Assembly (NCBI GenBank): GCA_964016885.1
Contig: OZ024758.1
Span: 16,864,001-16,928,000, forward strand
Direction of reading: 5' to 3'
Length of the DNA: 64,000 nucleotides
Origin: Eledone cirrhosa
Lineage: Eukaryota
The position numbers and the translations under genes were made by a program. The notes under the pieces are model-generated. The model did no database searches. It was not told the origin of the DNA and saw only the letters and a program-made list of their open reading frames with translations. This document shows, piece by piece, positions 1 through 56,166 of this stretch. Each line of letters starts with the position of its first letter. The stretch's first letter is position 1.

Positions 1-679
1 CATATATGATGGTTAGTTGCGATATAAACAAGCAACTGCCGGATGAAGAAACAAACCCTGACCAACAGCAGTAAACTATTAGTTGAAATGCAGTGGTGTA
101 TTAAAAGCGGTGTTAAATGCCTTCAAATATTTAACTATTTAATTCCCATCTACTTAACACAAAATAATGTGAGTTAAAATTTATACACATTTTTTTCTTT
201 TTCATTTTTCTACACATGAATATAATGAGGTACATTATATATAACACACTTCCTAAAAAGAGAAAAAATAACTCGTATTTGAATTCCCACCTAATATAAA
301 TATTTTAAGTTATGTGCTAAACAATTTGAAATCTTCTACTCTAGAATGCAAATCTAATCTACACTAATGTTGAATTACCATATTTTTTAATAAAAGACAC
401 CGTCCATAATTTTCAAATAATTTTGAAATTAATCACGAATTTTGATGGAATTAGTAATATAACTAACTTTCCTATTATTAAACTGTTTTTTTAAGCATTC
501 ATTAGCAACGTTTAGATCAATATAAACCACTTTGTATTGTAGAATCTGGGTCATTGTCAGACAGTTTGTCTTCAAAAGGGTTAAGCAGATTCAGTTAGCT
601 ACTTAACTTTCTGATGAACCAGGCATAAAGTATGTAAGCTGCCAGCTTATATTAGTTTTAAGTCTAAAGTCTGTCTTAA

Positions 680-47897: not shown

Positions 47898-48226
47898 TTC
47901 ATTTCATTTCATTTCATTTTACGTCCGCTTTTTCCCTGCTTTCAAGGGTGGGACGGGAACTGATGCTGGCTTGATTTCTACAGCTGGATGCCCTTCCTAA
48001 CACCAACCTCATTTACAGTGAGTGCTGGGTGCTTTTTTGCCGTGGCACCTCCACGACCACTTTGCAGTGGAATGATAGGGACCCCAGTCCCTATCATCTC
48101 ATTTCTACAGCTGAGTAAACTGGAGCAATGTGAAATAAAGTTTCTTGCTCAAGGAAACAACACATCACCGGGTCTGAGAATTGAACTCACAACCTTTCGA
48201 TTGCAAGGCCAATGCTTTAACCACTA
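47898..48226 (-). mobile_element. SINE family A
   Basis: Reverse complement of 5838-6180, lacking the first ~12 nt. Confidence 0.9.
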
Positions 48227-48442
48227 ATATATATTCACTTTTATGTTGTAACTATATATATATATATATGTATGTATATAAAATAACAAGTAGCCTTTAC
48301 GGTAATCCAGCTAGAGGTTATGAGAGTACTCTGTATCAAGGATAGTTTTAATGTTCAGTATTGTTTGACTCAACCTGTAGTTTCCCTAGTCAGGTGGTCA
48401 GTTTAAGATAGTTCTTAGGTAGGCTGTTCTTGGAGTAATAAT

Positions 48443-49228: not shown

Positions 49229-49336
49229 ACGAAGGAAGTGTGGCAACGAATCAGGCAGACCATAACAGGCCAGAGTACTCAATACTTTGGGTAGTAGAAT
49301 GCGCAATAGGAATAGAGTCCAGATATACCTGTGGAA

Positions 49337-49522
49337 ATGGCTTGAGCTCTGCCGTCGGGGTTCTGACTTTTTTCCTATTACCCATTCTACTGTCCAGAAA
49401 TAGCTTTCAAAACGGCTTGATCTCTGCCGTCGGGTTCTGACTTTTTTCCTATTACCCATTCTACTGTCCAGAAATAGCTTTCAAAACGGCTTGATCTCTG
49501 CCATCGGGGTTCTGACTATTTT
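49337..49522. repeat. Tandem repeat of about 80 bp, 2.3 copies
   Basis: ggcttga.ctctgcc.tcgggttctgact recurs three times. Confidence 0.8.
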
Positions 49523-49616
49523 CCAATATATATATATATATATACGTTATTCCGGGTTGAATCGGAGGTAACCACAGTAAGTAAGGTACTCAATACATAG
49601 CAGAGTATAAAAGTTT

Positions 49617-49726
49617 TAATATAGATGAGATTCTACAGGACTAGAACTGTTTCATTCTTTAGAAATCATCAGGATGATTTCTAAAGAATGAAACAGTTCT
49701 AGTCCTGTAGAATCTCATCTATATTA
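49617..49726. repeat. Perfect palindrome with 54-bp arms and a 2-nt spacer; hammerhead core on the minus strand
   Basis: 49617-49670 is the exact reverse complement of 49673-49726. The minus strand reads CTGATGA-tttctaaagaat-GAAA-cagttcta-GTC starting at the axis. Confidence 0.9.
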
Positions 49727-50249
49727 TATATATATATATATATATATCCAGATTCACAGAAACCTATCGAAGATATTTATCGATTAATATCTAATATCTA
49801 TCGATCAGGTCCAGGTTTGTCTTTAACCTGTATGTATTTTTCGTTGTAGTATTAAGGTGGCATCAAACCGCTGGTCACATTATTCATTGTGTCACTATTA
49901 CCTAACTTATTGTGAATACTCTGTGGAGTAATTTATTCATTTCTCGCTCATTGAGTGATTCGTGATAGCATTCGTAAATTGATTGCAAAACTGCTATTGG
50001 CAGCTGTAACTTCAGTTATACTCATTCTACTGTTTGTATATATAGCAGAGTTATGTAGCTTGCTTGAAGCATTGTTTAATAGGAAAGACAAATTTAAATT
50101 ATTATTATTATTATATTTATATATATATACATACTTATATATATTTATATATATATATATATATATTTATTTATATACACACATATATATATACATTTAT
50201 TCATATATATACACATTTATTCATATATATATGTATATATACAAATGTG

Positions 50250-50325
<76 letters not shown>

Positions 50326-50371
50326 TATAGATGTATATATACAAAGCTGTCTCTCTCTCTATATATATATA

Positions 50372-50427
<56 letters not shown>

Positions 50428-50744
50428 TAGATGTATATATACAAAGCTATCTCTCTCTCTCTCTATATATATATATATAAATGTGTCTATATATATATAT
50501 AAATATACACACACACATGTGTGTGTGTGTTAAATGAATGAACAAAGAACTTCCTGAGATCAAAACATTTATTATTCTTTGTACGATTTGTTAACTAGAA
50601 AATTAGGTTTGATAATGCAAACATAATGTTTATGAATCGATTAATTTCCGTCAAATCTCCTCAAGAATAAAAGGCCCCTTGCAACATAGAATTAAAAAAA
50701 TATAATTACTATTAAACTGAAGATATTTATATTTGTATTGACTG

Positions 50745-51430
50745 GCAATGTTGTTTAACGTCGGACAATATGCTTTATAGCATAGAGTTATACTCCTTTA
50801 CGTTCTGTGTTCAAATACTGCCATGGTTAGCTTTGCCTTTCATCCTTACAGTGTGGTTAAAATAAAGTACCAGTAGCATAATGGGGTTCATTTAATCAAC
50901 TTTCCCCTTTCCTTAAATTTGTTGCCCTTGTGCCTAAATCTCTAAATCAGAAACAGTCATTAGGGCAGTAGATTATTAGTATTTTTAGACAATTGGACAA
51001 CATGCTTTGCAGCATAGAGCTATGTCCCTTTACATTCTTTGTTTAAATCCTGTTGATTTAATTGACTGTCCTCTTCCCTAAAAATTGCTGCCCTTGTGCC
51101 TAAATCTCTAAATCAGAAACAGTTATTAGGGCAGTAGATTATTAGTATTTGTAGACAATTGGACAACATGCTTTGCAGCATAGAGCTATGTCCCTTTATC
51201 TTCCTTGTTCAAATCCTGTTCATTTAATCAACTTTCCCCTTTACTAAAATGTGTTGCCCTTGTGCCTAAATCTCTAAATCAGAAACAGTTATTAGGGCAG
51301 TAGATTATTAATATTTGTAGACCATTGGACAACATGCTTTGCAGCATAGAGCTATGTCCCTTTATGTTCCTTGTGCAAATCCTGTTGATTTAATTGACTT
51401 TCCCGTTCTGCCTAAACCAGAAACCATTAT
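50745..51430 (+). repeat. 166-bp tandem array from a deleted SINE B derivative
   Basis: tctaaatcagaaacag at 50941, 51107 and 51273. Confidence 0.8.
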
Positions 51431-51699
51431 CTATCCTAATTTTGTCGTTAACGAAATGTGCATAGAATAGTAATAAATATTTTAATCCCAGCAACTTGTT
51501 TGGCCTTTCATTAACACAGGTTTATGTTCTGTGATGTTGCTTATGTTCAATATATTGGATGTCTCCATTTATAAATATTTGTATGATATAATGTCCCCCT
51601 TTGCCTCTCTCTCACTCACTCTCTCTCTCTCTATATATATATATATACACACATATAATGTATAAATAAATATATATATATAAATAATGTATATATATA

Positions 51700-51727
51700 T
51701 TTTCCATTTGTTAATATCGTATATATA

Positions 51728-51773
<46 letters not shown>

Positions 51774-51922
51774 TATTTATATATATCTATATATCTATAT
51801 ATACATTATTTATATATATATCTATATATACATTATTTATATATATATATATCTATATATACATTATTTATATATATATATATCTATATATACATTATTT
51901 ATATCTATATATCTATATATAC

Positions 51923-51970
<48 letters not shown>

Positions 51971-52033
51971 GTATATATAGATATATAGATATAAATAATG
52001 TATATATATAGATAGATATATATATAAATAATG

Positions 52034-52115
<82 letters not shown>

Positions 52116-52143
52116 TATATATACGATATTAACAAATGGAAAC
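51700..52143. repeat. AT-rich foldback of about 440 bp centred on (TA)n
   Basis: ttttccatttgttaatatcgtatatataattta is mirrored at 52111-52143; inner tacattattt units are mirrored by aaataatgta. Confidence 0.85.
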
Positions 52144-52300
52144 TATATTTATAAAACCATATTTATTTCATTATACATATTTCAAGGACACCAAGTTAAA
52201 TTATGGCGTGCTTTCATCAGATAAAATATAATATAGAGCAGTTTTATAAATAAATATTGACATACCCTTAAAGAATGCAACCATTACTGTTGGAAGCTCC

Positions 52301-52341
<41 letters not shown>

Positions 52342-52399
52342 TGTATATATATAAATATAATGTATATATATATATATAAATAATGTATATATATATATA

Positions 52400-52587
52400 T
52401 AATTGTTTCTACTTTAGGCACAAGGCCAGCAATTATCCAGTACATTACTGGTACTTTATTTTATCGACCTTTAAGGATGAAAGGCAAAGTCAACCTCGGC
52501 GGGATTTGAACTCAGATCGTAAAGGGACGTAACTATACTGGAAAGCATGGCGTCCGACCCTCTACCGATACTGCCAATCCACCGCCG
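52400..52587 (-). mobile_element. SINE family B, full length
   Basis: Head ggcggtggattggcagtatcggtagagggtcggacgcc, B box gagttcaaatccc, core gcctttcatcct..ggtcgataaaataaagtaccag (Nin/Sauria-like domain, from memory). Confidence 0.9.
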
Positions 52588-52685
52588 TATGTATATATAT
52601 ATATATATATATATAAATGATGTATATATATATATAAATGATGTATATATATATATATATATATATACAAATATATATATATATA

Positions 52686-52836
52686 CGTTATTCCGGGTTG
52701 AATCGGAAGTAACCACAGTAAATAAGGTACTCAATACATAGCAGAGTATAAAAGTTTTAATATAGATGAGATGAGAATCTCAGAGATTCCTGATGATTTC
52801 TGAAGAATGAAACAGTTCTAGTCCTGTAGAATCTCA

Positions 52837-52842
<6 letters not shown>
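52686..52842 (+). ncRNA. Second copy of the 49546 repeat with a non-palindromic hammerhead-like core
   Basis: 52686-52772 matches 49546-49631. CTGATGA at 52790-52796, ttc-tgaa-gaa stem, GAAA at 52809-52812, GTC at 52821-52823. Confidence 0.6.
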
Positions 52843-52902
<60 letters not shown>

Positions 52903-55826: not shown

Positions 55827-56166
55827 GAGGCACATGGCTTAGTGGTTAGAGCATTGGCCTTGCAATCGAAAGGTTGTGAGTTCAATTCTCAGACCGGGTG
55901 ATGTGTTGTTTCCTTGAGCAAGACACTTTATTTCACATTGCTCCAGTTTACTCAGCTGTAGAAATGAGATGATAGGGACTGGGGTCCATATCACTCCACT
56001 GTAAAGTGGTCGTGGAGGTGCCACGGCAAAAAAGCACCCAGAACTCACTGTAAATGAGGTTGGTGTTAGGAAGGGCATCCAGCTGTAGAAATCAAGCCAG
56101 AATCAGTTCCCGTCCCACCCTTGCAAGCAGGGAAAAGTGGACGTAAAATGAAATGAATGAAATGAA
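55827..56166 (+). mobile_element. SINE family A, full length
   Basis: As 5838-6180. Confidence 0.9.

What the first reader, a model, noticed from the sequence alone, without database searches (positions are those of the whole stretch)
49546..52842. Perfect palindrome hinged exactly on a hammerhead core, with an unhinged sister copy 3 kb away
Seen: 54-bp perfect arms at 49617-49726. The 2-nt spacer supplies the CT of CTGATGA, so the minus strand reads CTGATGA-stem II-GAAA-cagttcta-GTC while being fully sequestered by its own complement. The sister copy at 52686-52842 has the same upstream flank and the same core on the plus strand without the long foldback. Established: Penelope-like elements (PLEs) carry minimal hammerheads with a short stem III that can cleave as dimers, and often insert with inverted termini. 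Inference: the inversion breakpoint is tied to the ribozyme structure during reverse transcription, giving an 'off' (dsRNA) and a possible 'on' version of one element. Stem I is weak in both copies.
Basis: partly seen in the sequence, partly recalled or inferred. Interest (0 to 1): 0.72.

Follow-up and report, generated by a model that had tools for sequence, protein, structure and literature searches.

The report
Penelope stubs meeting at RNA start
Both copies are short back-to-back stubs of a very abundant Penelope-like jumping gene, and they meet at the hammerhead ribozyme most likely because the element's predicted capped RNA starts six bases before the ribozyme core and is likely copied from both ends of one DNA cut, which would show which RNA strand these elements use.

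Summary
The 54-bp palindrome and its sister are real. Both are stubs of a Hydra-clade Penelope-like retrotransposon (16,398 exact core matches; one copy with a 713-aa RT + GIY-YIG ORF).

The hinge is not special. Only 150 of 6,382 comparable palindromes share it, in both orientations and several subfamilies. Arm ends pile up at +1..+10 of a predicted start (TATA at -30, Inr), and the core lies at +7..+13. A non-templated G precedes +1 in 2,068 copies, also in a subfamily where stem-I snap-back predicts A; this is likely the cap. In 35 of 38 pairs one arm is long (tail) and one short; 30 of 31 share a haplotype. Best model: both nicked TA-target strands prime on one capped sense RNA, run off its 5' end and are end-joined.

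The architecture is known; the cap evidence was not found in print. No RNA data. The scan reached this reading earlier on other windows of this genome.

The parts
49545..49673 (-). Copy A long arm: element positions +6..+134 (+1 = A of AGATTCC), core, 3' stem I strand and ~70-nt tail; runs into (TA)n
   Evidence: against real locus L039; 2 differences, both common family variants
49673..49726 (+). Copy A short arm: +9..+62, ending in (TA)n at the short end site
49671..49673 (.). Hinge: AG = T8 and C7 of the long arm; G at 49673 is shared by C6 (long arm) and G9 (short arm), a 1-nt microhomology
   Evidence: same hinge at 150 loci
49628..49672 (-). Hammerhead core of A lacking the 5' strand of stem I; predicted cut site between 49634 and 49633; predicted inactive
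52686..52772 (-). Copy B long arm remnant: +48..+134 with tail
52773..52783 (.). B junction: GA, then GAATCTC (reverse complement of G-AGATTC), A, and the non-templated G at 52783 (likely cap copy); looks like the common both-arms-G junction after loss of about 41 nt from the long arm (inferred)
52784..52843 (+). Copy B short arm: +1..+60, ending in (TA)n
52784..52834 (+). Complete type I hammerhead of B: stem I AGAUUC/GAAUCU, CUGAUGA, U, stem II UUC/GAA, U, GAAA, stem III CAG/CUG around UUCUAGUC, GUA; predicted cut between 52828 and 52829

Best explanation
Copies A and B are independent stub insertions of a Hydra-clade Penelope-like retrotransposon, each likely made when both nicked strands of a (TA)n target primed reverse transcription on one predicted capped sense RNA, ran off its 5' end six bases before the hammerhead core, and were then likely trimmed and joined head to head. 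Shown: family, parent ORF, arm layout, end positions, extra G, shared haplotypes. Inferred steps: (1) a Pol II promoter in the pLTR starts the RNA at +1; (2) the RT-GIY-YIG protein cuts both strands of (TA)n; (3) one strand primes at about +134/137 and the other at +55..67, the two tail boundaries; (4) both cDNAs run to the cap and often copy it as an extra base; (5) the two cDNA 3' ends lose 0-20 nt and are joined by microhomology or filler. In A the arms lost 5 and 8 nt, which places the join on CTGATGA. The ribozyme is mostly uncleaved in the template.
For: Family: 16,398 exact 31-mer matches, control 0. Parent: L062, 713-aa ORF from +182, between two cores 5,966 nt apart. Promoter: TATAAATA at -30, CCAGATT at +1, CCAAT further up (consensus motifs recalled). 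Sample of the first 100 matches on C1: 38 close head-to-head pairs, 35 long+short; 56 of 76 arm 5' ends at -2..+10, none at +41 or +46; loop/53 haplotype equal in 30 of 31 readable pairs, about 0.33 expected per pair. Base before +1 genome-wide: parental CC 7,269; G 2,068; non-C then C 1,368; A or T 468. In about 20 of 30 G loci neither partner arm nor flank supplies the G. Second subfamily, where snap-back predicts A: G 39, T 23, A 16 of 78; G in 12 of the 22 truncated among 30 fetched. Both arms read G-AGATTCC at 164 loci; 22 of 22 examined are long+short, with a 1-nt spacer A 8, T 8, other 6. PAc cuts and extends both strands, starts at two internal sites bounding the tail, and uses uncleaved RNA (PMC11167929). 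An extra G marks capped 5' ends in L1 insertions (PMC11702581).
Against: No RNA evidence was obtained; start site and cap are inferred from DNA. In the second subfamily 10 of 22 truncated copies lack the G, 2 of 8 untruncated copies carry G by substitution, and the search fixed position -2 as T, so longer snap-backs were excluded. About 10 of 30 G loci can be explained by partner or flank. In both-G junctions one G could be templated filler. One locus shows a 4-nt stem-I snap-back-like extension (L154). Haplotype sharing could also come from one dominant source locus per cell or later conversion. The 5' end of full-length L062 lies at -3 to -6, not +1. Arm ends are BLAST calls, uncertain by the microhomology; one pair (L104/L106) is a duplicate. 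RTs add untemplated bases without a cap (recalled).
Confidence: 0.78

Rival explanations
1. Self-priming or fold-back: one cDNA (or an antisense RNA template, as proposed for rotifer PLEs) folds on itself and the second arm is a copy of the first.
For: Explains shared haplotypes. Proposed in PMC3846280. Occasional stem-I or templated fillers at junctions.
Against: Both arms reach +1 plus G with a single base between them in 16 of 22 examined, too tight for a fold-back loop. Either arm can be the more truncated one. The second arm stops at the family's fixed short or long end. An antisense template does not explain a wall at a sense TATA/Inr start with an extra G.
Confidence: 0.12
2. One reading: the hinge is set by the ribozyme structure or cut, and A and B are off and on versions.
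For: The same hinge recurs 150 times. Stem I gives 6-7 nt of microhomology at some junctions. A few arms end near +46.
Against: 150 of 6,382. Other hinges are as common in the 50 loci listed. Only 126 strand matches (about 70 loci) have both arms cut back beyond about +30, and about 15 of the roughly 58 loci listed sit at +46..49. A has no stem I; B has no promoter.
Confidence: 0.05
3. A short palindromic master element is itself transcribed and re-mobilised as a unit (MITE- or SINE-like).
For: Some junction types recur many times.
Against: Identical hinges occur on different haplotypes, subfamilies and orientations. No arm among 402 had more than 2 A>G or 3 T>C changes. Stubs lack the promoter.
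Confidence: 0.04
4. Assembly fold-back artefact.
For: No contig in 4 public runs spans locus A (contigs break in repeats).
Against: Thousands of palindromes with varied hinges, private differences between arms, unequal arms ending at family-specific sites, and non-mirrored flanks.
Confidence: 0.01

Closest known systems
Hydra clade of C-terminal EN+ Penelope-like elements (Craig et al. 2021, PMC8557442; passages read)
   Same: Single short ORF with RT and C-terminal GIY-YIG; RW(K/R), DKT, CxCX5C, CxxC and CxH motifs; no CCHH; hammerhead in pLTR; (TA)n targets; inverted 5'-truncated copy with a tail on one end.
   Different: Tail about 70 nt rather than 30-40; element about 6 kb because of a microsatellite-filled 3' UTR; very high copy number; stubs of 150-200 bp dominate close pairs. 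No tree was built here.
PAc Poseidon element in vitro (Frangieh et al. 2024, PMC11167929; parts 1-2 of 4 read)
   Same: Two internal RT start sites bounding the tail; both target strands cut and extended; AT-rich target; uncleaved RNA as main template.
   Different: Other clade. The paper does not treat cDNA 3' ends, caps or palindrome formation in the parts read.
PLE minimal hammerheads (Cervera and de la Pena 2014, PMC4209133; parts 1-2 of 4 read)
   Same: Type I core in the pLTR, extra base after A9, pairs of opposite-strand motifs 100-700 bp apart already noted.
   Different: 6-bp stem I and 3-bp stem III with a CUAG-centred loop, so not a minimal form; U-U instead of G10.1-C11.1; stem II only 3 bp.
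L1 twin priming and cap G (PMC11702581; passages read)
   Same: Second RT from the other target end; end-joining with microhomology; extra G at capped 5' ends.
   Different: In L1 the two cDNAs cover adjacent parts of the RNA and give an inversion; here they cover the same part and give a palindrome.
Palindromic PLE junctions in Adineta vaga (Arkhipova et al. 2013, PMC3846280; passages read)
   Same: Head-to-head inverted pLTRs, palindromes at the junction, TATA and Inr in the pLTR.
   Different: Explained there by self-priming on an antisense template; the data here favour two cDNAs from a sense capped RNA.

Membership tests
EN+ Penelope-like element | Single ORF with RT and C-terminal GIY-YIG endonuclease | tested here: met
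   L062 713-aa ORF with YRDD and IVY..YIG; Pfam GIY-YIG only E=0.012, below cut-off, and no RT family hit; 1,403 homologues, best 39-54% identical, unnamed; motifs conserved in 40
EN+ Penelope-like element | pLTRs, inverted 5'-truncated copy, tail on one end | tested here: met
   35 of 38 close pairs long+short; kb-sized versions L061, L064, L065
Hydra clade | RWK-like and DKT motifs | tested here: met
   RWR (homologues R40 W39 K35 of 40) and DKT (D40 K40 T36)
Hydra clade | CxCX5C linker, CxxC and CxH around conserved E and N, no CCHH | tested here: met
Hydra clade | Insertion into (TA)n | tested here: met
   Flanks of nearly all loci printed
Hydra clade | Length under 3 kb | tested here: not met
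   About 6 kb between pLTRs in L062; the paper says 'generally' short
Hydra clade | Phylogenetic placement with named Hydra RTs | not tested
   No named reference sequences were in hand
Type I hammerhead ribozyme | Core CUGANGA, GAAA, UH with stems I-III | tested here: met
   GUA register: 96% of cells paired, 2 stem I pairs covary, stems II and III show no covariation; same layout in other families in the loci
Type I hammerhead ribozyme | G10.1-C11.1 pair | tested here: not met
   U and U at these places; the hammerhead fold is 5 kcal/mol above the minimum in the monomer
Type I hammerhead ribozyme | Self-cleavage | not testable with these tools
   No assay; arms starting at +46 are rare
Non-LTR retrozyme | Tandem hammerhead units | tested here: not met
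   A and B are head-to-head stubs; one 221-bp tandem derivative exists elsewhere (L171)

The most novel reading that the evidence does not exclude
PLE palindromes are fossil run-off products of two RT passes over one capped sense RNA, primed from both target ends. The thousands of stubs then map the transcription start at base resolution, overturn the antisense self-priming model, and show that the hammerhead sits at the extreme 5' end of the RNA yet is almost never cut in the copied template.
Probability: 0.7. Interest if true: 0.65.

Novelty: new member of a known kind. Interest (0 to 1): 0.5.

Why it matters
How PLEs build inverted ends, and which RNA strand they copy, is open in the papers read (PMC3846280, PMC8557442). 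This family gives a base-level prediction that is simple to test: a capped start at +1, two start sites, one template, and an uncleaved ribozyme. The single locus is ordinary. More than 6,000 near-perfect hairpins could also be a source of double-stranded RNA when read through, which was not tested.

Tried and rejected
Rfam scan: no hammerhead match at E<=1. GTC-cut register rejected. A first impression of a fixed AGAG 5' end and of a peak at +41 came from the 30 loci chosen for likeness to B; it vanished in the positional sample, and AG microhomology explains most +41 cases among 82. Snap-back as the only source of the extra G: weakened by the second subfamily. A-to-G editing: not seen in 402 arms. 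RNA: no RNA holder listed, which says nothing on expression. Contigs of 4 runs hold the element at great depth but do not span the hinge. Paper searches that found no report of the cap or two-ended model for PLEs; subscription papers and supplements were not seen, and Repbase or Dfam may already hold the family. Not counted genome-wide: stem-I microhomology joins and copies reading into the ORF.

Full report
Observation. The palindrome is as described: 54-bp perfect arms at 49617-49726 with spacer AG, the only such non-simple palindrome in the window. The sister at 52686-52843 shares the flank and the core. Rfam gave no hammerhead among 75 weak matches. The window lies in a 3.0-Gb assembly.

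Family and parent. A 31-base core motif occurs 16,398 times, control 0. Longer copies continue upstream into a pLTR and a microsatellite-rich UTR. Locus L062 carries a 713-aa ORF starting 182 nt into the element, between two cores 5,966 nt apart. Pfam gave only a sub-threshold GIY-YIG hit. Against 40 of its 1,403 homologues the ORF shows the Hydra-clade motifs listed in PMC8557442: RW(K/R), DKT, CxCX5C, CxxC, CxH and no conserved CCHH. No tree was built. I number the element from +1 = A of AGATTCC; TATAAATA begins at -30, CCAGATT spans +1 and a CCAAT box lies upstream (the promoter consensus motifs are recalled).

Anatomy of A and B. A is a long arm (+6..+134, minus strand) joined to a short arm (+9..+62) through one shared G. 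The 'upstream flank' is the inverted tail. B is a short arm (+1..+60) preceded by an extra G, an A, the 7-base mirror GAATCTC, and a long arm reduced to +48..+134. A and B differ at three shared positions, so they are separate insertions.

Where arms end. I fetched the loci of the first 100 core matches on contig C1. They gave 116 arms, 76 of them in 38 close head-to-head pairs; the other 40 were single or widely spaced. Of the 38 pairs, 35 are one long plus one short arm; 56 of 76 5' ends fall at -2..+10, 9 lie further upstream, 11 further downstream, none at +41 or +46 (BLAST ends, one duplicated locus). Loop and +53 variants agree between arms in 30 of 31 readable pairs, against about 0.33 per pair by chance. 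Over 402 distinct arms from all loci, 3' ends peak at +136 (152), +60 (46) and +67 (42). These match the two start sites bounding the tail in PMC11167929.

The hinge. Head-to-head GATGATTTC pairs with 0-26 bases between them number 6,382, several subfamilies included; 150 have A's hinge. In 23 of these the arm starting at +6 was the long one in 10, the short one in 9, unclear in 4, on many haplotypes. The hinge is therefore a recurrent joining product. It lands on CTGATGA because the core occupies +7..+13.

The extra G. Before AGATTCCTGATGATTTC the genome has parental CC 7,269 times, G 2,068, non-C then C 1,368, and A or T 468. Ten of 30 A/T loci were parental substitutions; none of 30 G loci had intact parental sequence; in about 20 of 30 neither partner nor flank supplies the G. 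At 164 loci both arms read G-AGATTCC; 22 of 22 examined were long+short, 16 with a single A or T between. A snap-back of the cDNA end onto stem I would also add G in this subfamily. In a second subfamily it would add A, yet G led with 39 of 78, against T 23 and A 16. Among 30 fetched, 8 were untruncated; of the 22 truncated, 12 had G, 8 A and 2 T. An extra G marks capped 5' ends in L1 (PMC11702581). No RNA run was listed, so the cap is inferred.

The ribozyme. Moving the triplet to GUA (+43..45) gives stem I AGAUUC/GAAUCU, stem III CAG/CUG, 96% paired cells and two covarying stem I pairs; related sequences inflate this score, and stems II and III do not covary. Other families in the fetched loci have the same layout. 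The motif has U-U in place of G10.1-C11.1 and is not the monomer's best fold. If cut RNA were the usual template, both arms would start at +46. Only 126 strand matches have both arms that short, and few sit at +46..49. A lacks stem I; B folds otherwise with its flank.

Mechanism. Most likely the protein nicks both strands of (TA)n, each end primes at one tail boundary near the 5' end of a capped sense RNA, both cDNAs run off at +1, and their ends are trimmed and joined. The template may be the full transcript or a short one from a lone pLTR; the data do not separate these. Kilobase palindromes with the same long+short ends (L061, L064, L065) would be the same reaction from the 3' pLTR. A fold-back model explains shared haplotypes but not two complete arms one base apart.

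What is known. The architecture is in print: PMC8557442 (passages), PMC3846280 (passages), PMC4209133 (parts 1-2 of 4), PMC2377424 (passages). I also read part 1 of 5 of bioRxiv 10.64898/2026.07.22.740005 and passages of PMC13000458; a search inside PMC7353768 returned nothing. PMC3846280 proposes antisense self-priming. Searches found no report of cap signatures or two-ended priming in PLEs; supplements were not read. After I had formed this reading, the scan's notes showed the same idea from other windows of this genome; that is not independent support.

Verdict. A real but ordinary locus of a new Hydra-like family, whose population carries good DNA evidence on an open mechanistic question. 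Interest 0.5.

Noticed in passing
window 52115-52303 (minus), core at 52220; inverted 3' piece at about 51702-51730: A second, unrelated type I hammerhead stub (8-bp stem I, GAAA-TATGTA-TA) between TA tracts, with a tail-to-tail copy of its 3' end across a 400-bp TA-rich palindrome; a relative is in L228.
   Followed up: partly
L171 (G000:C1:67879500-67882800): Three tandem 221-bp units of this family spanning -12..+204, retrozyme-like and including the ORF start.
   Followed up: partly
G000, and tallies: Strand imbalance for the parental motif (5,041 forward, 2,228 reverse), suggesting a large tandem array somewhere.
   Followed up: no
L061, L065 (G000:C1): Palindromes of this family with 3.3-4.3 kb arms and the same long+short ends.
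   Followed up: partly
L004, L019, L043, L170, L195, L203, L232, L260 and others: At least eight further hammerhead-bearing repeat families in the fetched flanks, many with GAAA-palindromic tetramer-TA.
   Followed up: no
window 50886-51408 and 49317-49527: Tandem repeats of 166 bp (3 copies) and about 74 bp (3 copies).
   Followed up: no
window 48066-48227 and 55839-56000: 162-bp inverted repeat, 97% complementary, 7.6 kb apart, enclosing both A and B.
   Followed up: no
L132 (G000:C1:94684487-94687504): A G-preceded +1 arm sits directly behind a partial upstream pLTR, a possible capped 5' end inside a tandem junction.
   Followed up: no
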